Shown: positions 2,129-64,000 of the stretch, piece by piece
How the letters are laid out: the number at the start of each line of letters is the position of its first letter
Numbering within the stretch: the first letter of the stretch is position 1
Position numbers and translations under genes: made by a program
The notes under the pieces: model-generated
Database searches by the model: none
The model's input: only the letters and a program-made list of their open reading frames with translations
What the model was told of the DNA's origin: nothing
DNA from: a virus
Length of the DNA stretch: 64,000 nucleotides
IMG/VR virus record: IMGVR_UViG_3300026487_000003
Reading direction: 5' to 3' (one strand)

Positions 2129-2351
2129 GGTATTTCTCCTGAAACTCTAGAATGAATTGCCGGTAATCTTTGTTCTCTTGAGACAGATTATGAAGCTCAT
2201 CCTCGGTTATGTCAACCCATGTCGCTATGAAATTATTCATTGCAATTTCTGATCGAAATTCAATAGCTGATAGCAAATCTATATGGGCACATTTACGGTC
2301 TTCGTTGTCGTTGGTTGGGATTGTGTCAAGCAAGTCTTTCAGAGAGTACAT
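2115..2351 (-). CDS. hypothetical protein
   Basis: Track ORF 2115..2402. The start at 2351 (MYSLKDLL) minimises overlap with the deaminase gene. Confidence 0.5.
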   Translation of the reverse strand: MYSLKDLLDTIPTNDNEDRKCAHIDLLSAIEFRSEIAMNNFIATWVDITEDELHNLSQENKDYRQFILEFQEKYHDNR

Positions 2352-2722
2352 TCTAGCACCTGTATGTTCTTCATTTTGAGTATCATGGCGCAGCTTGGGC
2401 ACGGATTACTAGGAAGCAAGTCACCTTTCCTACCAACTCTCACGATAGTGGCCCTATAAGCCTTGTGGTGAGGTTTTAGCTTGATGCAAGCACCTAGCTC
2501 AGCGTGGACATAACAACGCTCTGAATCGAATCCTGTGGCCTCTGAGAGACGTTTCTGCAAAGGGTGCGTACAAGTGTAGTCGTTAACACCTGTGGAAAGA
2601 ATCCTACCACGCTTATCCGATATAATACAAGCCACTCTCTGGAAGCCTTTGACGTTCGGAAGCTCAAGGGCAAGGGCTTTAGCACGGTCGATTAGTGTCT
2701 TCATTGCGTTTCGACTCGCCAT
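2339..2722 (-). CDS. cytidine/dCMP deaminase-like zinc enzyme
   Basis: HAE zinc/catalytic motif (CYVHAELGA) and downstream PCPSC motif at the spacing typical of the CDA fold. Confidence 0.7.
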   Translation of the reverse strand: MASRNAMKTLIDRAKALALELPNVKGFQRVACIISDKRGRILSTGVNDYTCTHPLQKRLSEATGFDSERCYVHAELGACIKLKPHHKAYRATIVRVGRKGDLLPSNPCPSCAMILKMKNIQVLECTL

Positions 2723-2927
2723 AAATCAGATTAGTAACTTCTGCCGACATAGCAGCCCACTCATCACCCCAATACTTCAGGATAGGGTAGGGTAGATCGC
2801 TGTAGCTAAGCGCTGAGATAAACCCCAAGAACTGCTGACAGATTGCGTCCTTAGCGTAGCTGTTTGTGTGCAAATCAAAATCACGACGGTATTGTTCGAG
2901 ACGGGCGATGACGGCTTCTGTGTTCAT
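2679..2927 (-). CDS. hypothetical protein
   Basis: Track ORF 2679..2987. The ATG at 2927 (MNTEAVI) is preceded by GAGGAA and avoids overlap with 2938..3423. Confidence 0.5.
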   Translation of the reverse strand: MNTEAVIARLEQYRRDFDLHTNSYAKDAICQQFLGFISALSYSDLPYPILKYWGDEWAAMSAEVTNLIYGESKRNEDTNRPC

Positions 2928-2937
2928 TTCAATTTCC

Positions 2938-3423
2938 TCAGACGATCTTCTTAAAGGTTGATTTGATGTTAGACTCAATCTCTTCACTTGTCAACAACCC
3001 ACTGAACCATTCTCCCACCAATCTTTGCTTTTTGAACAAAGAGTGAAGAGATTTTTCAATCTCTCTTGCAGGCTGGTTTACTTTCCATACAGACGCCAGC
3101 TTCACAGGCAGACCCATAGCACAAGAAATAGCAGCAGCACGGGTCTTAGGATTCTTGCTGATTCCAATTTTTGAATTACCTGTACTATCACAATGGATGA
3201 GATACAGAAACTGATTGTCGTCCTTGTAATCTTTGAATTTTGAAAACCTCGCAAGTAAGGAGTTAGCAAGGTTGGAATCAATGTCCTTTCTCTCGTTTTT
3301 CCTAGCCCAACCTTTGACATTCGTTATTCCAAAAGCAATAAATTCCTCATTAGTCATCGCAAATTTGATCCCACCGTCTGCGGTCAAGCCGTTGCGTGCT
3401 TTCATATAATCATCTAGCTTCAT
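2938..3423 (-). CDS. T5orf172 / GIY-YIG-like domain nuclease (putative free-standing homing endonuclease)
   Basis: FLYLIHC...SKIGIS...R...GEWF motif set typical of T5orf172; AAGGAG 7 nt upstream of the ATG at 3423. Confidence 0.7.
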   Translation of the reverse strand: MKLDDYMKARNGLTADGGIKFAMTNEEFIAFGITNVKGWARKNERKDIDSNLANSLLARFSKFKDYKDDNQFLYLIHCDSTGNSKIGISKNPKTRAAAISCAMGLPVKLASVWKVNQPAREIEKSLHSLFKKQRLVGEWFSGLLTSEEIESNIKSTFKKIV

Positions 3424-3862
3424 TACCAATCTCCTTTAAATGGTATTCAGATTTACATTCCACTGAGTTCTGAAATTAAGGTAAAAAGACCCCTAACCCG
3501 TGGCCATACGCTTCTTAAGAACCCTGCGGCTCTCTGCGCTTCGACCTAGGTCAGAGTCTATTCCTTTTAAGAACTCAGTGTCAACCCCATGGACTGAATT
3601 TCTTCAGCATTCCACTTGAGACTTCAACAAATCCTACGAAGCATGGGTACATTCATAGGCAAGGGGTTAGCACAGGTTTACAAGGCGGCTAACCTTCGGT
3701 ATCATTTTTACGACCTTGATCGCTGTCACTCAGTCCATACCTTTTCGACCAGACTGTGCTTTGTGGTGACTCCGTGGTAAGCTTTAAGTCTAAGGCGCCC
3801 GTTGCATTTCTGACCCCACCAAAGACCGAGCAAACAAGTACCATTGCTGTTAAATGTTCACG
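3424..3862 (-). ncRNA. structured ~430-nt leader RNA, copy A of a 3-member family
   Basis: No ORF of 60 aa or more in any frame. Shares motifs and compensatory helices with 34481-34891 and 63627-64000, and ends in GAACTCAGTGGAATG about 30 nt before the RBS. Confidence 0.55.
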
Positions 3863-3868
3863 ACACCA

Positions 3869-3896
3869 ATTATACTAGCTTTTCCCCAAACGTCTA
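3869..3896 (-). promoter_or_regulatory. sigma70-like promoter TAGACG-16-TATAAT for leader A / T5orf172
   Basis: TATAAT is the reverse complement of 3869-3874 and TAGACG of 3891-3896. Confidence 0.5.
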
Positions 3897-4021
3897 CACA
3901 ATTCTCTCTATAGCTCACCAACTCCTAATAAAATCTTTCAATCAAAATTCCCCTTGCATCCTCATCAGATCGTGGTAATTTAGACCTATCGAAAGCAAAT
4001 CAACCTGATGAGGTGAGTGAG

Positions 4022-4735
4022 ATGTCTTTTAATGTCGGAGAAATCATCAACATTGACGCCCCTTTGATGAGGCTTGAGCGTAAGCATCCAGGCTTTGAAG
4101 GCGCTATCAAGATCGGTAAGCGTGACTTCAAGAGCTACTTAACCTATCGCTTTGTAAAGGATTCTATCAGCTTTATTCCGATCAAGGACGTCAACGAATC
4201 TTTGACGGACGCATCTACTATGATCCGTGCGCCTATTCCTAAGACGGAAGAAGATTTCCTAGGTTACATCCATGAGCTGGGTCACTGTAAGGCTAAGCAG
4301 TATAGGTCTAGCCGACAATCCTTTATGGGTATGTACATCAGTGTTGACAAGGCTTGTGTAGAGAATGAAGTGAATGCTTGGCACTGGGGTTTGCGCTACT
4401 ACCGCCGGCTGGGCATGAAGCTGTCCGAGCAAGGTCGTAAACTTATCTGTAAGACTCTGGGTAGCTACCTGAAAATAGCGACTGACAAGGATCATGCCAA
4501 GTCTTGCTCTGAGAGGATCAAGAATTTGACAGGGTTGAGTTACGAAGATTACGTTCCTAAAGAGAAAGACAGAGTAACACCAAGCTTGACAATTACTATT
4601 GACTGGGGTGACATTAAGCCAGTCAATGACTACTGTCTACCAAAGAAAGAGGTTGTGCAGACTGTTGACAAGCGAAAGCCTTGGGTTAGACTGAAAGAAA
4701 AGCAACAGAAACGTCAGTGGAGAAATCAGAGATGA
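4022..4735 (+). CDS. putative zinc metallopeptidase (HExxH)
   Basis: IHELGH motif with downstream NEVNAW; GAGGTGAG upstream of the ATG at 4022 (track start 4013 is GTG). Confidence 0.55.
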   Translation: MSFNVGEIINIDAPLMRLERKHPGFEGAIKIGKRDFKSYLTYRFVKDSISFIPIKDVNESLTDASTMIRAPIPKTEEDFLGYIHELGHCKAKQYRSSRQSFMGMYISVDKACVENEVNAWHWGLRYYRRLGMKLSEQGRKLICKTLGSYLKIATDKDHAKSCSERIKNLTGLSYEDYVPKEKDRVTPSLTITIDWGDIKPVNDYCLPKKEVVQTVDKRKPWVRLKEKQQKRQWRNQR

Positions 4736-5773: not shown

Positions 5774-5975
5774 TATCACTATCGGTGTTGAGTTTCTGGC
5801 TGGTACAAGTTTCATTACTGCGATTGAGGAAGCTAAACAAAAGGCTCAAGAGTGGAATGTTGCATTTGTTAAATTTGATTTTAACGGTCGCAAGATTTCA
5901 GTGAGTCAACATGCTGATCTTGAGCAACTTGCAGAAGATTGGAAAGACTGGTCTCGTAACTATTTGGTGGGGTGA
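5760..5975 (+). CDS. hypothetical protein
   Basis: Track ORF 5667..5975. The ATG ATG at 5760 is preceded by AAGGGGG; the W-rich N-terminal extension looks spurious. Confidence 0.5.
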   Translation: MMKSNITIGVEFLAGTSFITAIEEAKQKAQEWNVAFVKFDFNGRKISVSQHADLEQLAEDWKDWSRNYLVG

Positions 5976-7093: not shown

Positions 7094-7251
7094 TGAATAT
7101 GAAAAATGCTATTGTGGCTGCTTACGTATACGCCTATGAAGCAGCTATTATTAACTCTCGTGAAGAAATGCTTGAGAAGCTTGTTATTGAGCTAACCAAA
7201 CAGCTTGAGCGCATGGAACAGCAGGAAGCTCTGCGAGTAAGTAAAAAATGA
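7093..7251 (+). CDS. hypothetical small protein (52 aa)
   Basis: Fills the gap before the primase gene; overlapping start and stop on both sides. Confidence 0.4.
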   Translation: MNMKNAIVAAYVYAYEAAIINSREEMLEKLVIELTKQLERMEQQEALRVSKK

Positions 7252-33714: not shown

Positions 33715-34416
33715 CTATCCTTTAACAGGAGGACCTGAAACAGAGGGGCCTGATTGGACACCTGAATGAACGTGGGCATCAAGGATTACACCATTGCTCA
33801 CAACCATGCCTGTGTTGATGAAAGCTCCATTGTGGGTAATATCACCTGTCCAAGTAGTCTCAGGGGCATTTACCTCAACGGCTACATCTGTATTGATTAT
33901 AAGCTTCCCAGATTCGCTCAGACGCAATTCTACCTCTACCCCACTACCTAGGTTATGGGCTACCACCAAATCGTGTGTAGAGTGGGGCCAGCGGCGTTTA
34001 GCGGGGTTGTTTGGAGCGCGTCCTACCGGGAAAACACCAGGGATTGCAACACAGTCTTTAATATCAAACATTCGATAGTCTGTAGGAGTAGACGCATAAC
34101 CATTACTACCTTTCCAGGCTGTCAGACCACGTTGACTGAATACAAGCAATACAGGATCACCAGGATTGAGCGGAAAGGTGATAGCACTAGTAGATGATGC
34201 AGGAAACACTACAGGTACATTCAGGATAGGAGGACGTTCTTGTGAGCTGCCATCATAGCCCTTGAAATTAATAGCAATCTGAACATCTACCTGCTGCCCT
34301 TGTAAGTCATTGATTGTACGAATTACAAAGCCAGGAACACAGGTATTCATCTGCTCAAGGTGATGCTCTACAGCAGATTGCAACGTCTCCTGAAGTGATA
34401 TCTCTTGATCTGCCAC
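33715..34416 (-). CDS. baseplate central spike (gpV / Gp138-N-like)
   Basis: PGFV...VDVQ N-terminal OB-like motif and C-terminal HVHSG...GP motif. GTG at 34416 lies 6 nt after AGGAGA; the track start 34455 is unlikely. Confidence 0.65.
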   Translation of the reverse strand: MADQEISLQETLQSAVEHHLEQMNTCVPGFVIRTINDLQGQQVDVQIAINFKGYDGSSQERPPILNVPVVFPASSTSAITFPLNPGDPVLLVFSQRGLTAWKGSNGYASTPTDYRMFDIKDCVAIPGVFPVGRAPNNPAKRRWPHSTHDLVVAHNLGSGVEVELRLSESGKLIINTDVAVEVNAPETTWTGDITHNGAFINTGMVVSNGVILDAHVHSGVQSGPSVSGPPVKG

Positions 34417-34445
34417 ACAGTTTCTCCTAAAGGTGTTGACAGGAG

Positions 34446-34474
34446 AGAAATTCACCTGTACAATGGTTAATACA
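34446..34474 (+). promoter_or_regulatory. near-consensus sigma70 promoter TTGACA-17-TACAAT
   Basis: TTGACA at 34446-34451, 17-nt spacer, TACAAT at 34469-34474; points away from the spike gene into leader B. Confidence 0.65.
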
Positions 34475-34480
34475 TTTTGA

Positions 34481-34891
34481 AAGTCTAACGGAAAACGACA
34501 TTCTTTCGAATCGGTGTTGGATGGGGGCTAACTGTACACAGCGTCCAGCACTTAAAGCATACTGGGAGAGCTACTAACAATGCAGTCTCTAGTCGAAAGA
34601 AGGAAGAGACGGTAGCAGCGTGTGAGAACGTATAAAAGTCCTTCAACTAAGGTAATCTCATTAAACCCTTAGCTCGGCATAGACGTACCCGTGCGATCTA
34701 TGTTAACCTTAAGTCTCAAGTGGAATGGCAGATAATCTGCTTCTCACGGGGGAGTTCTGGAATCGAGATTGACCGAAGCTTAGGTCTTAGGCTGATTAAG
34801 TTCAGTATGGCCTTTGCTTAGGAGTAATCTATCTCGAATTCTTAGAACTCAGTGGAATGATTAAATACTAAATAACTTAAGGAGAGTGATT
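34481..34891 (+). ncRNA. structured ~405-nt leader RNA, copy B of a 3-member family
   Basis: No ORF of 60 aa or more. Long-range helix 34762-34779 with 34841-34860; hairpins at 34595-34620 and 34738-34750; a 28-nt block at 34794-34821 is identical to 63721-63748 on the opposite strand. Confidence 0.6.
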
Positions 34892-50350: not shown

Positions 50351-51814
50351 TTATCGTATAGAAGTTAGTGGATTCTTTACTTGTTCAAAACCAAAGCCAG
50401 TCATTCCGGGGAGGAAGTTTGGGATGTAGACGTTTTTACGAAGGACCTCGTAAGTATCGCTGATTGCGTCGAGCATATCGTCCTTTACGTTTCTACTACC
50501 GTCATATTCCTCAAGCTCATCAAAGAATGTATCATTATTGGCTAAGATATTGTTCTCAAGGTCATCACAACAACGTTTTACTATCTTGACCATTCCAGCT
50601 TGAGCTACAGAAGCAAAAGGACCGAAACGGTTCATTTTAGTACCACGTCCTGCCGATCTAACCATCTTCGCAGTAAAGCCGTTTTCACTTAGCACCTTAA
50701 CAAGATGCTTTGCATAAGCTTCACCGCCAGGACCTGGGTCCCATGGAATACCTACAACAACGTCTGGACCATCTTGACGCGCTAGTTTTAGAATCTGCTC
50801 TTGTACGTCACCATGTACACCTCGGAATCTGAATACATGTTCAATGATGTATTCGCCATCTTTTGTACGGGACATTAAAGTAGATGCTGTGTAGTCAGGA
50901 TTGTGGTTCTTTTCGGATTTCTTACTAGAAGCAAGGTCCCAACATCTAACCCTTTGACAAGGTTTCTGTTGAGGCCAGTCAACTTGTTCTAACCAGTTAC
51001 GATCAAAAACAGAAGCTGATTGTTCTTTTGCATACCAAGACCCGAGGTAAAGTCGCTCCATCTCTACGCGGGGCATGTTTTTCAGTCGAAATACATAAGA
51101 AGGGTCGCGTTCAAGAAGCACAGGATTATCATGGCAAGTTGCTGGATAAAACGTGAAGGACATAGGTCCACACTCTTTCCCGTAACGCTCTTCTAGCTCT
51201 TCTCTGGTTTCTGCCCAACGCATCGTATTACCTTGACGAATAAACCACATTCGCTTACCATCACGGTCTTTACGAGGTAAACCTCTTTCATCTAGATAAC
51301 CTGCATCCTCCAACCACTTACGCAAAAAACTTGAGTAGTCGGGGTTTGCTGTCATTAGCATTTGAGGCTTCATCGGGGCTGCTGTACGCATACGAGAGAT
51401 GAAGTATACAACTTGCGACTCTTCAAACTGCTGGGCCTCATCCACTAGGAAAGTGGACACCTGCCAACCTTGGAAGTTATGCTTGTCTTTCTCCTGCTCA
51501 CAACCCTTACAAACTACAGTTGCCCCTTGTGGAAATATAAACTTGCATTCTTTAGATTTGAATTTCGCACCAAACTCTGAATATAATTCTTGTGCTGTTT
51601 CAGCTACACCACCAGGGCCAGTTACTTGTACCATGGTACGTCGAACAATTACACCACGAAAGTCTTTCATATCTGGTCTAGTGGCCCATTTAAGCATTGC
51701 CATCACACCTAGATATGACTTCCCGCTACCTGCCGCACCACCGAATAATACAATGTCGGAGTCATCATTTAAAAATGCCTCCTGTTTAGGGGAGGCAGGT
51801 CCTATAGCACTCAT
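50351..51814 (-). CDS. terL: terminase large subunit
   Basis: Walker A GGAAGSGKS, Walker B LVDEAQ, C-terminal nuclease-like acidic residues. Confidence 0.9.
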   Translation of the reverse strand: MSAIGPASPKQEAFLNDDSDIVLFGGAAGSGKSYLGVMAMLKWATRPDMKDFRGVIVRRTMVQVTGPGGVAETAQELYSEFGAKFKSKECKFIFPQGATVVCKGCEQEKDKHNFQGWQVSTFLVDEAQQFEESQVVYFISRMRTAAPMKPQMLMTANPDYSSFLRKWLEDAGYLDERGLPRKDRDGKRMWFIRQGNTMRWAETREELEERYGKECGPMSFTFYPATCHDNPVLLERDPSYVFRLKNMPRVEMERLYLGSWYAKEQSASVFDRNWLEQVDWPQQKPCQRVRCWDLASSKKSEKNHNPDYTASTLMSRTKDGEYIIEHVFRFRGVHGDVQEQILKLARQDGPDVVVGIPWDPGPGGEAYAKHLVKVLSENGFTAKMVRSAGRGTKMNRFGPFASVAQAGMVKIVKRCCDDLENNILANNDTFFDELEEYDGSRNVKDDMLDAISDTYEVLRKNVYIPNFLPGMTGFGFEQVKNPLTSIR

Positions 51815-51817
51815 TTA

Positions 51818-52687
51818 TTATCCTAAATATTCTCTAGAAAATTTTAACCACTTAGAATCTTCTTTTGGTATCCAGCCTTCTTTGAACTTTTCTACACTCC
51901 CTCTGAAATAATCTTGATGCAAATCATCGCAATATATTTCGTTGTAAATGGTCCTTAGTTTTCTTCTAGAAGGTTTATCAAAGGTTAACCAAAGTTCATA
52001 GTGAATATCTGAAAGAGCCCACCTAAGTAAATCTTTTGGGTTTTGAGCCAAGCCAATTTCCCAAGGCTTTATATCTCGCTCTAAACGAGCTTTAGATATC
52101 TTACTTTTTGTCTCTGTAGAGTGTAGTTTTCCATAAAAGGGATTTAACTCTCCTACAACACTATTTCTATATTCGACAGAAAGACAGCCACAAGACCTAG
52201 TATTTCCAGAAGAAATTGTGTTAGAAGGAAGTTCTATAAAATTACCACATTCACATTTACACAGCCATTTTGAAAGTCTGGAAGAATTCCTTTGAACCCA
52301 ACCTACATTTTCTATTACTGTTAGCCTTCCAAAAACTGAACCTGTAATATCCTTAAAATAATTTTCCATCCTTTCTATATTATGTTGTCTACATAACTCT
52401 TTTAGAACTTTGTACTGATGAGAATTTATCTTAAAATTCTTAGTGTCTGCCATTAACATAACAGCAACAGCTAGACCTTTATGCTCAGGATTAGCTTTCC
52501 ACAAAAGAAGATGAGCAACGAAGTGTTCTCTGGCACTAAACATCACCAGATTGCTTTCTTCATTACCTCCACCCAAACAACGCGGTACGATATGATGAAT
52601 CTCTGTATAATAGTCTACAGATTTCTTATCTAAACCTCGTGGCTTGCATTTATCTACAAGCTGATTGTATATCTTTTCATAGTTCAT
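51818..52687 (-). CDS. HNH endonuclease adjacent to terminase
   Basis: EIHHIVPRCLGGGNEESNLV...REH HNH motif and C-terminal CKCECG...CGC zinc motif. Track ORF 51818..52789; the ATG at 52687 (MNYEKIY) is preferred. Confidence 0.8.
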   Translation of the reverse strand: MNYEKIYNQLVDKCKPRGLDKKSVDYYTEIHHIVPRCLGGGNEESNLVMFSAREHFVAHLLLWKANPEHKGLAVAVMLMADTKNFKINSHQYKVLKELCRQHNIERMENYFKDITGSVFGRLTVIENVGWVQRNSSRLSKWLCKCECGNFIELPSNTISSGNTRSCGCLSVEYRNSVVGELNPFYGKLHSTETKSKISKARLERDIKPWEIGLAQNPKDLLRWALSDIHYELWLTFDKPSRRKLRTIYNEIYCDDLHQDYFRGSVEKFKEGWIPKEDSKWLKFSREYLG

Positions 52688-59305: not shown

Positions 59306-61849
59306 TTAAACGTTATAAATCTTAGCCTTCGCTTTTACCACGTTTAAGGTGTTAGTGTTGTCAAGCTTACCACCAGAAAGCGCATTGGTCGTTTCTAGGT
59401 TATGTTCACTAGCTTTATCAATACTATCACCAACTGCGAAGACATAGACGGTTACGCCGTTATCAAGCAGATAGGTAAGTAACTCATCAAAAGCTTTCAG
59501 GAACAGAGGTAGGTTGCCAGGAACAACGGTTTCACCGACGCTAACGTTGAAGTTCTTTTTGATAGACCATTCAACAAAACCCTTGGCACGGCTTGCTACA
59601 AGAGTCTCCCACGTTTCGCCAGAGGCGAGCAACTGATCAGCTTCATTTATTACGCCATCTTTGTTTTCATCAAAGTAGCCGTCTTTGCCCCGATCAAGAT
59701 AACCGTGAGCAGAGAACTCGATGTAAGCACGACCATTTGGGTGACTTAGGTTATCAAACGAATCACCAACCAACTCAGCCCAACGGCTCATTGAGCTGTA
59801 TGCTGGACCTTCGAAGACGTAGATCAGGTCAGTACCGGTTAGAGGTCCGCAACGATCAAGAAGCTTCTGGTAAGCAGCAGCAAGGAACTTAGCATCATGC
59901 TCAGCCATATAAGGCTCATTGATAACATCGTAACGCTTGATTGCACTCCAAGCCTTGGTGTTACCCTTGAGGAGCTTCAAAAGCTGATACTGACGTTCCA
60001 CCCACATGTCAACTGTGTTACCTGTTGAACCAAGTAGAGCCTTGTTAGGTGCTCCATTGGAAGGGAAGTAACCGTAGCTGTGATTATCTAGCATGATTGT
60101 CATGCCACGATCAGCAGCCTGCTCACCAATACGAATCAGGTGGTCCAGAGTCATTGTACGACCCCAGCTTGGCTGAGTTACGTCATTACCTTGCCAGTAT
60201 TTGAGAGGGTTAGCAGCTTCCGGGAAAATACGACCTTCAAGGAATCCAAGGCGAATATCTGTGATACCGTAGCTCTTGATACGATCCATCTCGGATGTTT
60301 TAAGCATCGTGTAGTTGGTAGATTCAATGCCTGGAATGACATGATCTGCACCAGCGCCTACAGCACCATTTACAGCAACCTTGCCTTTCTTACGACGAAC
60401 AAACCCTTGGGGTACATCTACCTTAGCCAGGGCAAACTCAGTCACTACATCCCAAAGAGGCTTCTTGGTAGCAAGATTGGTACGAATACCGAAGTGTGCT
60501 TCCTGACCTTCCATATTAGGTTCATCAAGAAATTCATAAACGTTGATTTCTTGGATGTAGTCTTTGTATTTCTGAGCTTCGTTCAGAAATTGGCGTAGGC
60601 TGTTAGCAGTAGAGGCTTCATTCCCTGTAGTACCTGCCTTGTAGATTTCGCCAGCATTCATCTCATTGAAGAATACTTTAGCCCCATACATCTTGGAGAT
60701 AGCGACAATCTGACCAAAGTACAGATCATACCAACTACCTAGCTCACCAATGTATGCGTAGTAGTGGAAGCTTACGTAGTCGAAATTGAAACCAGCAGCT
60801 TTAGCTTGCTCAAGGAACCAGATGTCTCCACGCTTGTCGCCGTAGCAAGTGGCACCAGAATAATTCGAGTTGCAAGCTGTTACGTTGATGGTAAACTTAA
60901 GGTTAAGACCTAGCTCATCGCTAGCCCGCTTCATACCTTTGTAGGTGGCTACCATCTCAGCTATCAAACCAGCAGCGGCAGCTTTACCTTTTAGGTTTAC
61001 TTCGTTACCAATCTCCCACACCTTAACCCGATCACCATAAGCCTTTGCGTATTTATAGGCATTAGCTTCTGTGGTTGGGTAGATCATGGGACGAAGAGTT
61101 ACGCCATACTTTTGACAAAGACCAATAAGACGGTTCATCTCTGTGGTGTTGTCAAGATAGCCTGTACCAACGTCAGTACGATAACTTTTCAGATTGTTAT
61201 CTGCCAGAAGCTTGATACGAGCTTCCATCTCAGCTTTAGGATAACTGATCTCACGTCCTTCATGACCATTAACACCCAAAGGGATGTTTTTGTACTCAGC
61301 AGAAGGCTGAGGATTTGGCGTAGGCGTTGGATCAGGGGTAGGTTCTGGTGTAGGAGTAGGGACAGTAGCCATACCATACAGAGTGACGCTACCAGGGGCT
61401 CCTAGGGCTTCTGTAAGGTTGATAGCACCAACCACCACCTTAGCAAGAGTAACGCCTGCAATCACAATAGGCTCATTGCTTACAATGATTGAACCTTGAC
61501 CATTCTTAAAACGAAGCTTAAGACCGGCTTTGACGGCTTGTGCTGGACGAAGCAATACAGCATTGTCTTTTACGCTAATACCCTTAACAAAGTTGCCACC
61601 GCTGTAATCTACGATTTGGTAGACAGTATCTGTATCGGCGATAGTGGGTAGCGTAGGAGCAGTCTCTGCTGGAGGAGTGATAACAGGGGGAAGCTCTGGA
61701 GTTCCTGAACCATCAACCGGAGGATTACCACTTGCATCTGGTGGAATAACAATACCAGAATAATCAGCTAAGATAGCTGCAACGTATTCTGCAATAGGGT
61801 CTGCAAGAATACCAACTTTTGACTTCAACACATCAATAGGGGATGCCAT
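59306..61849 (-). CDS. large tail-associated glycoside hydrolase with two TIM-barrel-like domains (C-terminal GH5-like)
   Basis: VWEIGNEVN and FFNEMN in domain 1; DNHSYGYF, VINEPY, SAHGY and VGETV in domain 2; PT-rich linkers (PTPTPEPTPDPTPTPNP). Confidence 0.6.
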   Translation of the reverse strand: MASPIDVLKSKVGILADPIAEYVAAILADYSGIVIPPDASGNPPVDGSGTPELPPVITPPAETAPTLPTIADTDTVYQIVDYSGGNFVKGISVKDNAVLLRPAQAVKAGLKLRFKNGQGSIIVSNEPIVIAGVTLAKVVVGAINLTEALGAPGSVTLYGMATVPTPTPEPTPDPTPTPNPQPSAEYKNIPLGVNGHEGREISYPKAEMEARIKLLADNNLKSYRTDVGTGYLDNTTEMNRLIGLCQKYGVTLRPMIYPTTEANAYKYAKAYGDRVKVWEIGNEVNLKGKAAAAGLIAEMVATYKGMKRASDELGLNLKFTINVTACNSNYSGATCYGDKRGDIWFLEQAKAAGFNFDYVSFHYYAYIGELGSWYDLYFGQIVAISKMYGAKVFFNEMNAGEIYKAGTTGNEASTANSLRQFLNEAQKYKDYIQEINVYEFLDEPNMEGQEAHFGIRTNLATKKPLWDVVTEFALAKVDVPQGFVRRKKGKVAVNGAVGAGADHVIPGIESTNYTMLKTSEMDRIKSYGITDIRLGFLEGRIFPEAANPLKYWQGNDVTQPSWGRTMTLDHLIRIGEQAADRGMTIMLDNHSYGYFPSNGAPNKALLGSTGNTVDMWVERQYQLLKLLKGNTKAWSAIKRYDVINEPYMAEHDAKFLAAAYQKLLDRCGPLTGTDLIYVFEGPAYSSMSRWAELVGDSFDNLSHPNGRAYIEFSAHGYLDRGKDGYFDENKDGVINEADQLLASGETWETLVASRAKGFVEWSIKKNFNVSVGETVVPGNLPLFLKAFDELLTYLLDNGVTVYVFAVGDSIDKASEHNLETTNALSGGKLDNTNTLNVVKAKAKIYNV

Positions 61850-63626: not shown

Positions 63627-64000
63627 CTCTTAACTCCTATGTTTATTTATTTCTTAATTCTTTATATCTCTTATCATACTGAGAGTTCTGTGTAGGAAGG
63701 ATAGAGAAGTCCCTATACCCGCCATACTGAACTTAATCAGCCTAAGACGAGTATAGCGCTCTATCCTTCTCAATGCAACACATCATACTGATGAGACTGC
63801 GTTAGGCCGTCAATGTGGACGGAACGGATGGTTGTCATTCCACCATTTCTGGTGTAGCCTCTGACGCTATAACAACCTTCGAGATCAGCTTGGGCTTGTC
63901 AGAACCTATCTTCATACCCTTTAAGTAGCAGCCGGTGAGTGAATGCTTTCGCTGACATATCTCTCTGCTACCGATTAGCCTTACGCTAAAAATCATACTC
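63627..64000 (-). ncRNA. structured leader RNA, copy C (5' part beyond the window)
   Basis: 28-nt block 63721-63748 identical to 34794-34821; a perfect 11-bp helix 63696-63706 with 63759-63769 encloses it; no ORF of 60 aa or more. Confidence 0.55.

What the first reader, a model, noticed from the sequence alone, without database searches (positions are those of the whole stretch)
3424..3896. Leader copy A upstream of a T5orf172 nuclease: compensatory base changes relative to copy B
On the minus strand, a TAGACG-16-TATAAT promoter (3869-3896) is followed by about 430 nt without ORFs, then AAGGAG and the ATG (3423) of a T5orf172/GIY-YIG-like protein.

Compared with copy B, the order of elements is the same but helix sequences differ in a compensatory way:
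1. A hairpin around the shared loop motif GTCGAAA(R)G is CAGTC/GACTG in A (3731-3756) and GTCTCT/AGAGAC in B (34595-34620).
2. The hairpin after the internal motif GTCTCAAGTGGAATG is CTGAA-GAAA-TTCAG in A (3594-3607) and GCAGA-TAA-TCTGC in B (34738-34750).
3. The outer helix GAGTTC/GAACTC is identical (A: 3571-3576 with 3465-3470).
4. The inner continuation differs: A has TTAAAAGG/CCTTAA (3563-3570 with 3476-3481), whereas B has GAATCGAGAT/ATCTCGAATTC.

Shared unpaired motifs are ACTTAAAGC, GTACCC(A/G)TGC, GTATGGCC and TAGG. Both copies end with GAACTCAGTGGAATG about 25-30 nt before the SD.

This pattern of conserved architecture with co-varying stems is what a functional structured RNA looks like. 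Here it is attached to a different nuclease family than in copy B.
Basis: seen in the sequence. Interest (0 to 1): 0.8.

Follow-up and report, generated by a model that had tools for sequence, protein, structure and literature searches.

The report
New structured RNA family in phages
The "nuclease leader" is one copy of an undescribed, roughly 330-430-nt structured RNA gene that sits just downstream of sigma-70-type promoters, mostly at the head of gene runs, in many Pseudomonas-type lytic phages; the nuclease genes beside it look like later insertions, and its function is unknown.

Summary
Copy A (window 3456-3862, minus strand) and copy B (34471-34859, plus) are homologous RNAs whose helices differ by compensatory changes. 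A third copy, C, is cut by the window end.

With homologues from IMG/VR, metagenomes and GenBank:
- 24 pairs of the 5' domain are 91% paired, against 29-46% when the partner is slid.
- 37 pairs of the 3' hairpin "rod" are 83% paired, against 31-49%.
- No shuffle out of 500 reaches the observed values.
- G-U cells outnumber A-C cells 4-6 fold, which fixes the strand.
- A pseudoknot also covaries.

The interpretation needs revision. The RNA is not tied to nucleases:
- In four relatives it stands alone, antisense between baseplate genes.
- Elsewhere it precedes non-nuclease ORFs.
- In Pakpunavirus genomes it fills a divergent intergenic gap.
- Copy A and its T5orf172 gene are absent from near-identical relatives.

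No Rfam family matches, and 158 GenBank Pseudomonas phage records carry it unannotated or under "hypothetical protein" calls.

Its hallmark is unexplained. Two 7-13-nt direct repeats (M1 and M2) flank the rod. They differ between lineages but are identical within each RNA.

My best guess is a cis-acting operon-leader RNA. Function remains inferred.

The parts
3869..3896 (-). Sigma-70-type promoter of copy A (TAGACG-16-TATAAT)
   Evidence: Homologues carry TTGACA-17-TACAAT/TATAAT/TAGAAT at the same place.
3456..3862 (-). Copy A of the structured RNA, from the inferred start about 7 nt after the -10 element to the end of repeat M2
   Evidence: Homology to B, C and more than 20 external members. 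Covariation. Transcript ends are inferred, not mapped.
3631..3862 (-). 5' domain of A. Helices: H1 3859-3855/3836-3832; H2 3826-3817/3797-3788; junction UUAAAG 3787-3782; H3 3782-3779/3761-3758; H4 3756-3752/3735-3731; H5 3723-3719/3714-3710; H6 3694-3688/3671-3665; H7 3659-3652/3640-3633
   Evidence: Arm test. Model R1 alignment (H2-H5): 91.4% paired, 14 of 24 pairs with changes on both sides.
3586..3647 (-). Span of the pseudoknot: H7 loop CCCATG (3647-3642) pairs with CATGGG (3591-3586). It encloses M1 and hairpin H8 (3607-3594).
   Evidence: Four covarying versions, all fully complementary.
3608..3616 (-). Direct repeat M1 (AGTGGAATG), preceded by TCTCA
3461..3580 (-). 3' rod: a long irregular hairpin (CACTGAGTTC...GAACTCAGTG) with conserved internal-loop motifs CCTAGG, GTATGG and TAGGG
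   Evidence: Model R2: 83.3% paired, 31 of 37 pairs with changes on both sides.
3456..3464 (-). Direct repeat M2 (AGTGGAATG), preceded by AACTC, about 20 nt before the SD of the next ORF
2938..3423 (-). T5orf172/MUG113 (GIY-YIG-like) ORF downstream of copy A; read as a secondary insertion
   Evidence: Pfam. Window 2173-3907 has no counterpart in close relatives L106 and L107.
34436..34464 (+). Promoter of copy B (TTGACA-17-TACAAT)
34471..34859 (+). Copy B of the RNA (M1 34719-34727, rod 34752-34850, M2 34851-34859), antisense between the baseplate spike gene (33715-34455) and hub gene (35442-36335)
34892..35450 (+). Frameshifted ORF downstream of B, read as an inserted HNH/AP2-type homing-endonuclease gene
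   Evidence: The Pfam matches are weak and below the curated cut-offs: HNH_3 at 18 bits against 24.8, AP2 at 15.5 against 33.3. No ORF is present at the syntenic site of L002, L093, L094 or L099.
63673..64000 (-). Copy C (type II architecture), cut at its 5' end by the window edge. M1 63791-63782 and M2 63682-63673 (TCAGTATGAT). The ORFs of at least 150 aa between about 26.3 and 63.6 kb all lie downstream on the same strand, apart from two overlapping + strand ORFs.

Best explanation
Copy A is one of three paralogous genes in this window for a previously undescribed, two-domain structured RNA of about 330-430 nt.

Anatomy:
- The sequence indicates transcription by the host sigma-70 RNA polymerase from a near-consensus promoter.
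- The 5' domain is a multi-helix, pseudoknotted fold.
- The 3' domain is a long hairpin 'rod' with conserved internal loops (CYUAGG / GUAUGG / UAGGG).
- The rod is flanked by two short direct repeats, M1 and M2, which are identical within each RNA and differ between lineages.

What is shown:
- The RNA is the resident element. It sits right after sigma-70-type promoters, mostly at the head of transcription units, or points antisense into the late structural genes.
- The T5orf172 and HNH/AP2-like genes are homing-endonuclease-type insertions. They landed just downstream of M2 and use the RNA as their 5' leader and its promoter for expression.

Most likely mechanism (inferred, roughly 35-40% on its own): the RNA acts in cis on its own transcript or transcription complex. 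It would be an operon-leader element that secures long read-through, or that stabilises or processes the downstream message. The rod and its M1/M2 flanks would be the site where the leader is separated from, or coupled to, the message.
For: Structure:
- Compensatory changes in every helix.
- Model-based alignments: 91.4% and 83.3% of cells paired, against 29-49% when the partner is slid; 14 of 24 and 31 of 37 pairs changed on both sides; 0 of 500 shuffles reach the observed values.
- Model R2 recovers non-seed members.
- G-U cells exceed A-C cells 96:26 and 23:4, so the fold belongs to this strand.

Resident gene rather than nuclease leader:
- Stand-alone copies in L002, L093, L094 and L099.
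- Variable neighbours.
- Copy A plus its nuclease absent from close relatives.
- Different ORFs joined at the same point after AACTTAAG in B and L101.

Leader position:
- Near-consensus promoters directly upstream in all members.
- No terminator-like site in 2800-4200.
- The RNA sits in divergent promoter regions ahead of long gene runs in phiPMW, SYP and Pakpunavirus genomes. In the window this holds for copy A, which has the + strand ORF 4013-4735 upstream; what lies upstream of copy C is outside the window.
- Three copies in one window, two of them (A and C) heading leftward gene runs.

M1 = M2 in 17 distinct lineage versions.
Against: - No transcript data were available here. The start, the end and any processing are inferred.
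- In Pakpunavirus genomes a second sigma-70-type promoter follows M2. The RNA may therefore be a separate trans-acting product there.
- Stand-alone copies also fit a trans-acting RNA.
- The cis-leader model does not explain why M1 and M2 must be identical.
- No complement of M was found in the RNA, in the held loci, or in the complete 103-kb phiPMW genome.
- Known processive antitermination RNAs are several-fold smaller (my own knowledge).
- The whole-molecule folding z-score is only -1.9.
Confidence: 0.5

Rival explanations
1. Trans-acting structured non-coding RNA. It would be an abundant early phage RNA working as a decoy, sponge or scaffold, for example against a host defence or RNA-metabolism factor. 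It could also be a large ornate RNA of the GOLLD/ROOL kind. Downstream ORFs would simply read through.
For: - Stand-alone genes with their own promoter and no ORF.
- A second promoter after M2 in Pakpunavirus genomes.
- Size, a pseudoknot, GNRA loops and a tetraloop-receptor-like CCUAAG...UAUGG, exact in L003.
- Several paralogues per genome.
Against: - No terminator-like site in the one region scanned, around copy A.
- Most members are followed within 10-50 nt by a ribosome-binding site.
- No Rfam match to GOLLD, ROOL or any other family.
- No partner has been identified.
Confidence: 0.27
2. Self-processing or mobile RNA element: a ribozyme or template in which the identical M1 and M2 mark equivalent reaction sites. 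Possible reactions are excision or circularisation of the rod, or polymerase template-jumping between M1 and M2.
For: - M1 = M2 is kept through 17 different sequences, including a single G/A change present in both copies in L094 versus L095 and L099.
- The rod's base helix brings M1 and M2 together.
- Frequent association with homing-endonuclease-like genes.
- Copy A is present or absent among near relatives.
- RNA ligase genes lie in the same phages.
Against: - No match to intron or ribozyme families even at E <= 10.
- No flanking exons; the RNA has its own promoter and is intergenic.
- No reverse transcriptase is annotated in phiPMW.
- The M1-to-M2 spacing is not a multiple of three, and no repeat-unit ORF exists.
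- No internal guide complementary to M was found.
Confidence: 0.12
3. Nuclease-specific regulatory leader: a 5' UTR that controls translation or stability of the homing-endonuclease mRNA.
For: - A, B, L001, L124 and L135 are followed by nuclease-like ORFs with an SD 10-50 nt after M2.
- No terminator-like site lies between the RNA and the ORF.
Against: - Four ORF-less copies, non-nuclease ORFs in other members, and an ORF upstream of the RNA in L095.
- The same M and a near-identical RNA precede unrelated ORFs in B and L101.
- Conservation in 158 GenBank phage records; in the Pakpunavirus (EPA1, phiMK, PAK_P4), SYP and phiPMW loci inspected, no annotated nuclease gene lies next to the RNA.
Confidence: 0.05
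4. DNA-level element. The rod would be a MITE-like palindromic insertion, with terminal inverted repeats and M as a target-site duplication. Alternatively the repeats are substrates for slippage or deletion, and there is no RNA function.
For: - Direct repeats flank an inverted repeat.
- PaP1- and PAK_P1-like genomes carry an extra M - AT-rich palindrome - M at the M1 site.
- B and C share an identical 28-nt rod apex.
Against: - M1 and M2 sit at homologous positions in all members, yet their sequence changes in concert. A single old duplication would decay independently.
- Conserved unpaired motifs lie inside the rod.
- Compensatory change runs along the whole rod with a 96:26 excess of G-U over A-C, which is specific to the RNA strand.
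- No rod-less family member was found.
Confidence: 0.06

Closest known systems
Processive antitermination leader RNAs (HK022 putL/putR; EAR-type elements)
   Same: Sits immediately downstream of phage promoters of the host-polymerase type, in more than one copy per genome, mostly at the head of a transcription unit. No protein-coding role. Covarying stems.
   Different: From my own knowledge, put is about 70 nt with two stem-loops and EAR about 120 nt. This RNA is 330-430 nt with a pseudoknot and a rod flanked by co-evolving repeats. No sequence or Rfam similarity. Antitermination activity is untested.
Large ornate phage-associated RNAs (GOLLD, ROOL)
   Same: Large, highly structured, phage-encoded, intergenic, function unknown.
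   Different: No covariance-model match. It is smaller. It is tied to promoter-proximal positions and usually followed by an ORF. No tRNA lies nearby in the window.
Group I introns and the GIR1 lariat-capping ribozyme upstream of homing-endonuclease ORFs
   Same: A structured, pseudoknotted RNA of similar size next to homing-endonuclease genes in phages. GNRA loops and a receptor-like motif.
   Different: No exons, its own promoter, an intergenic position, and no Rfam Intron_gpI or GIR1 match even at E <= 10. Many members have no nuclease gene.
Template RNAs with repeated ends (retroviral R regions; DRT2 non-coding RNA for rolling-circle reverse transcription)
   Same: Identical short sequences at both ends of a segment whose ends are brought together by a stem.
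   Different: No reverse transcriptase in the neighbourhood or in the phiPMW annotation. The repeat unit is not in frame. Comparison with DRT2 rests on my own knowledge.
Early antisense RNAs over structural genes of PAK_P3 and PAK_P4 (PMC4933390, PMC5563952)
   Same: Copy B and its stand-alone homologues are promoter-driven units pointing antisense into the baseplate and structural module. This matches the reported early antisense transcription in related Pseudomonas myoviruses.
   Different: Those papers describe transcripts, not a conserved structured RNA. The Pakpunavirus homologue lies in the divergent intergenic gap, which is unannotated in PAK_P4.

Membership tests
Group I intron (Rfam RF00028) | Match to the family covariance model | tested here: not met
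   Nothing at gathering score in the window or in 10 loci. Nothing at E <= 10 in 3000-4300.
Group I intron (Rfam RF00028) | Interrupts a host gene whose exons join into one reading frame or RNA | tested here: not met
   The RNA starts at its own promoter. It is intergenic or antisense between complete genes.
HEARO / IscB-TnpB omega RNA | Covariance-model match and an adjacent IscB or TnpB gene | tested here: not met
   No Rfam hit. Neighbours are T5orf172, HNH/AP2-like, PcfJ-like, CapR-domain, small ORFs or nothing.
GOLLD / ROOL large phage RNAs | Covariance-model match | tested here: not met
put-type processive antitermination RNA | Lies directly downstream of a host-type promoter at the head of an operon | tested here: met
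put-type processive antitermination RNA | About 70 nt with two stem-loops; suppresses downstream terminators in cis | tested here: not met
   The structure is 330-430 nt with a different architecture. This row's 'not met' rests on size and architecture only; the antitermination activity cannot be tested with these tools.
Rolling-circle or strand-transfer template RNA (DRT2-like, retroelement R repeats) | Associated reverse transcriptase | tested here: not met
   No reverse transcriptase among the nine window ORFs scanned (the ORFs flanking copies A, B and C, plus the primase-helicase and DNA polymerase). None annotated in the complete phiPMW genome. The remaining window ORFs were not scanned.
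Rolling-circle or strand-transfer template RNA (DRT2-like, retroelement R repeats) | Identical sequences at both template ends, brought together by a stem | tested here: met
   This is a resemblance only.
Type III toxin-antitoxin RNA (ToxI-like) | Tandem 34-36-nt repeats upstream of one conserved endoribonuclease toxin | tested here: not met
   Only two 7-13-nt repeats, 70-170 nt apart. Downstream ORFs are unrelated to each other.
MITE or insertion sequence with target-site duplication | Terminal inverted repeats flanked by a duplication made at insertion; empty sites exist | tested here: inconclusive
   The geometry fits. Against it: no rod-less allele was found, the repeats evolve in concert, and the rod shows strand-specific G-U pairing.
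Known riboswitch or cis-regulatory leader classes | Match to an Rfam family | tested here: not met

The most novel reading that the evidence does not exclude
The RNA may be a new kind of catalytic or polymerase-directing RNA module. The requirement that M1 and M2 be identical would reflect a reaction using both sites equivalently. Candidates are RNA-level excision or circularisation of the rod, a splicing-like joining of the 5' domain to the downstream message, or template-jumping of a polymerase across the rod base. The module would be spread among phages together with homing endonucleases.
Probability: 0.15. Interest if true: 0.92.

Novelty: categorically new. Interest (0 to 1): 0.78.

Why it matters
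- The family is present in at least 158 GenBank Pseudomonas phage records. These include the Pakpunavirus phages (PAK_P1, PAK_P4, JG004, PaP1 and others), which I know as candidates for phage therapy. It is either unannotated or covered by spurious 'hypothetical protein' calls.
- If it governs early transcription units, or antisense silencing of late genes, it is a central and overlooked regulator of a major phage group.
- The M1/M2 repeats that co-evolve around a covarying hairpin fit no mechanism I could match to a known RNA class. They give a sharp, testable handle: mutate one repeat, then restore identity.
- The family also shows how free-standing homing endonucleases settle next to a conserved RNA gene and borrow its promoter.
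- Cultured carriers (phiPMW, SYP, Pakpunavirus phages) make all of this directly testable.

Tried and rejected
1. Rfam at gathering score on the window and 10 loci, and at E <= 10 on 3000-4300: nothing but noise.
2. BLAST of A and B against GenBank phages: no match. Only type II queries reached GenBank.
3. Exact 15-mer scans of IMG/VR gave about 90 chance loci and only 3 real ones. Three of the six metagenome pattern hits, and all but one of the 97 bacterial-genome hits, were chance.
4. The third AGTGGAATG at 5851-5859 lies in coding sequence and is not a copy.
5. Search for a complement of M, with four negative results:
   - RNAduplex within each RNA gave no conserved site.
   - The held loci contain none.
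   - The whole phiPMW genome contains none.
   - Candidate pairings with the H3 'ACCAC' pair, the H2 loop or the 5' end did not hold across lineages.
6. The idea that the M1-M2 unit encodes a repeat ORF was rejected, because the spacing is not a multiple of three.
7. Resemblances of M to tRNA D- or T-arm sequences, 16S rRNA, SD sequences, GGA (CsrA) motifs or start codons were inconsistent across members and were dropped.
8. MAFFT alignments were not structure-aware, and RNAalifold on them failed for the rod. They were replaced by covariance-model alignments.
9. Model R1 did not find the diverged L093-L099 5' domains with default filters.
10. The papers on phiPMW, PAK_P3 and PAK_P4 and the ONT-cappable-seq study do not describe this RNA. 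The 'sRNA' feature in phage YS35 is a 13-nt automatic call.

Full report
**1. What is at the coordinates**

On the minus strand, TAGACG-16-TATAAT (3896-3869) is followed by about 410 nt. Then come AAGGAG, an ATG at 3423, and a 162-aa ORF that matches MUG113/T5orf172. The B sequences are right, but two of the B coordinate ranges are about 10 nt too high. A 51-aa ORF (3689-3844) lies inside the region.

A profile built from A and B finds exactly three copies in the window:
- A, 3425-3896 (-).
- B, 34441-34891 (+).
- C, about 63650-64000 (-), which is cut by the window edge.

**2. Related sequences**

GenBank phages gave nothing with A or B as query, and Rfam gave nothing. Three kinds of search then collected more than 20 distinct members:
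- Pattern scans of IMG/VR and metagenomes.
- Synteny fetches using the baseplate hub and the primase-helicase.
- Iterative nhmmer and covariance-model searches.

Two architectures emerged:
- Type I: A, B, L001-L003, L093-L095, L099, L101 and L135. L128, found only with the rod model, also carries the type I H1 motif.
- Type II: C, L124, L156-L165, L177 and L186.

Type II queries reached cultured phages:
- vB_PpS_SYP and phiPMW.
- 124 Pakpunavirus records by megablast.
- 158 Pseudomonas phage records by blastn, including P. syringae phages.

In these records the region is unannotated or carries short 'hypothetical protein' calls. Of 97 bacterial-genome pattern hits, only one contig is real, and it is probably mis-binned.

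**3. Is it a structured RNA?**

Yes.
- RNAalifold on five sequences already gave 37 pairs with changes on both sides.
- For nine helices, including the pseudoknot between the H7 loop and the stretch after H8, each lineage's 5' arm pairs with its own 3' arm far better than with other lineages' arms. Those arms were picked by eye, so I repeated the test with covariance-model alignments.
- Model R1 (H2-H5): 91.4% of cells paired, against 29-46% when the partner is slid; 14 of 24 pairs changed on both sides; 0 of 500 shuffles reach the observed values.
- Model R2 (the 3' rod) recovered non-seed members. On 16 distinct sequences it gives 83.3% paired against 31-49% slid; 31 of 37 pairs changed on both sides; 0 of 500 shuffles.
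- G-U cells outnumber A-C cells 96:26 in the rod and 23:4 in the 5' domain. The fold therefore belongs to the strand read from the promoter, not to the opposite strand or to a DNA cruciform.
- The single-sequence folding z-score is only -1.9. The evidence is comparative, not thermodynamic.

**4. Anatomy**

- Type I 5' domain: H1 (with the conserved UCUAAC-GNRA-GACAU inner part), H2, the junction UUAAAG, H3, H4 (loop GUCGAAA), H5, H6 and H7.
- The H7 loop forms the pseudoknot.
- Then come repeat M1, hairpin H8 and the pseudoknot's 3' strand.
- The 3' domain is a rod of 60-130 nt that folds the same way in every member. It keeps the conserved internal-loop motifs CYUAGG, GUAUGG and UAGGG. In L003 these read exactly as the 11-nt GAAA-tetraloop receptor, CCUAAG...UAUGG; that identification is from my own knowledge.
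- Repeat M2 follows the rod directly.
- Types I and II share H2 with UUAAAG, the GUCGAA loop, and the rod with M1 and M2.

**5. The unexplained hallmark**

In every member, a 7-13-nt sequence just 5' of the rod region (M1) is repeated exactly at the rod's 3' base (M2), 70-170 nt away. The sequence differs between lineages:

| Member(s) | Repeat |
|---|---|
| A, B, L001-L003, L101 | AGTGGAATG |
| L135 | AGTTTGGATGG |
| L094 | AGTAGCAAG |
| L095, L099 | AGTGGCAAG |
| L128 | ATTAGGAAG |
| C | TCAGTATGAT |
| L124 | AACACAATG |
| L156 | TGAGCATGA |
| SYP | AGTGAGAC |
| phiPMW | CCATTGAGCATAT |
| L177 | TCTGAGCATATT |
| Pakpunavirus genomes | ATCTGCATA |
| L186 | ATCTACGAG |

For the 9-13-nt repeats, 0 to 8 of 300 shuffles per sequence give a repeat as long. 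For the 7-8-nt repeats (L093, L157, L158, SYP) that per-sequence test is not informative. The case rests on the positions being homologous in all members.

L094 differs from L095 and L099 by one G/A change that is present in both copies. No complement or further copy of M occurs in the RNA, in the held loci, or in the complete phiPMW genome. The spacing is not in frame. I could not explain this feature.

**6. Relation to the nucleases**

- At the hub-spike locus, L002, L093, L094 and L099 carry the RNA alone. It is antisense, and nothing lies downstream.
- L095 has a 210-aa ORF upstream of the RNA.
- B has a frameshifted HNH/AP2-like ORF downstream (the Pfam matches are below cut-off). L101 has an unrelated 99-aa ORF joined at the same point.
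- Other downstream ORFs are T5orf172 (A), an unassigned 216-aa ORF (L001), PcfJ-like (L003), a 134-aa ORF with CxxC/HH motifs but no Pfam match (L135), CapR-domain with a weak MUG113 match (L124), or small proteins (type II).
- Window 2173-3907, which holds copy A and its nuclease, has no counterpart in L106 or L107, whose primase-helicase is 98% identical.

The RNA is the constant element and the nuclease genes are variable add-ons. This matches the way free-standing homing endonucleases settle beside conserved sequences (my own knowledge of T4 seg and mob genes).

**7. Position in genomes**

- All members have near-consensus sigma-70 promoters.
- No terminator-like site follows copy A.
- In phiPMW, SYP and Pakpunavirus genomes the RNA sits in the divergent promoter region. 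In phiPMW it precedes the rightward run that contains the primase-helicase and DNA polymerase genes.
- In the window, A heads a leftward run of small ORFs. C heads the leftward run from 63.6 to about 26 kb.
- B points antisense into that run. This recalls the early antisense transcripts over structural genes reported for PAK_P3 and PAK_P4 (PMC4933390, PMC5563952).
- In Pakpunavirus genomes a second promoter follows M2.

**8. Interpretation**

Shown:
- A new, widespread, strand-specific structured RNA family with its own promoter.
- The nucleases are secondary.

Inferred: it most likely acts in cis as an operon leader, through read-through, antitermination, or message processing or stabilisation at the rod.

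Rivals:
- A trans-acting decoy or scaffold RNA.
- A self-processing or template RNA that uses M1 and M2.
- A nuclease-specific leader, largely refuted.
- A DNA-level palindromic insertion, disfavoured by the G-U bias and by the concerted change of M.

**9. Comparison with known systems**

It works most like a put-type leader in position. In size it resembles GOLLD, ROOL or group I RNAs. It fails every membership test I could run. I found no description of it in the literature searched.

Noticed in passing
L106 6985-7520 (minus strand), syntenic to window 3424-3900: Close relatives lack copy A at this locus. They have instead a different ORF-free stretch of about 540 nt, ahead of a gene that looks like denV (pyrimidine-dimer glycosylase) by eye from its N-terminal translation. 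This may be another non-coding RNA.
   Followed up: no
window 34779-34806 and 63749-63722: Copies B and C share an identical 28-nt rod apex (GTCTTAGGCTGATTAAGTTCAGTATGGC), although the rest of the two RNAs and their M repeats differ. This suggests recent exchange between paralogues within one genome.
   Followed up: partly
L171 and L187 (loci from contigs the length of PaP1 and PAK_P1), at the M1 site: M1 is duplicated with an AT-rich palindrome between the two copies, for example ATCTGCATA-TACATATATGTAT-ATCTGCAT. It looks like a small new 'repeat - palindrome - repeat' unit arising at the same spot as the rod.
   Followed up: partly
window 34892-35450: The HNH/AP2-like ORF after copy B is split by a frameshift (34892-35164 and 35139/35220-35450). 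It is a pseudogene or a sequencing error.
   Followed up: partly
window 26335-63626: Apart from two overlapping + strand ORFs (51399-51911 and 60140-60598), every ORF of at least 150 aa here is on the minus strand, downstream of copy C. Copy B is the only evident plus-strand unit inside this block.
   Followed up: partly
GenBank: OQ183418.1 47461-47706 (vBPpSSYP_113), KU862660.1 82178-82567 (PMW_181), NC_073609.1 54404-54511 (QE328_gp131): Annotated 'hypothetical protein' genes lie over the RNA and are probably spurious. The YS35 record carries a 13-nt 'sRNA' feature inside it.
   Followed up: partly
L260 1499-1781 (contig JAHFOH010000003.1, labelled a Thaumarchaeota MAG): This is the only 'cellular' contig with a family member. 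It is most likely a phage contig binned with an archaeal genome.
   Followed up: no
window 5851-5859: A fifth AGTGGAATG lies inside a plus-strand ORF. It has no surrounding similarity to the RNA and is taken as chance.
   Followed up: yes
L094, L095 and L099, H2 region (for example L094 about 7200-7225, minus strand): These members have an extra hairpin (CCTCTTGTTATAGGGAGG) inserted in the H2 loop. Its loop is complementary to their own M with G-U pairs (-7 kcal/mol). No equivalent exists in other lineages.
   Followed up: partly
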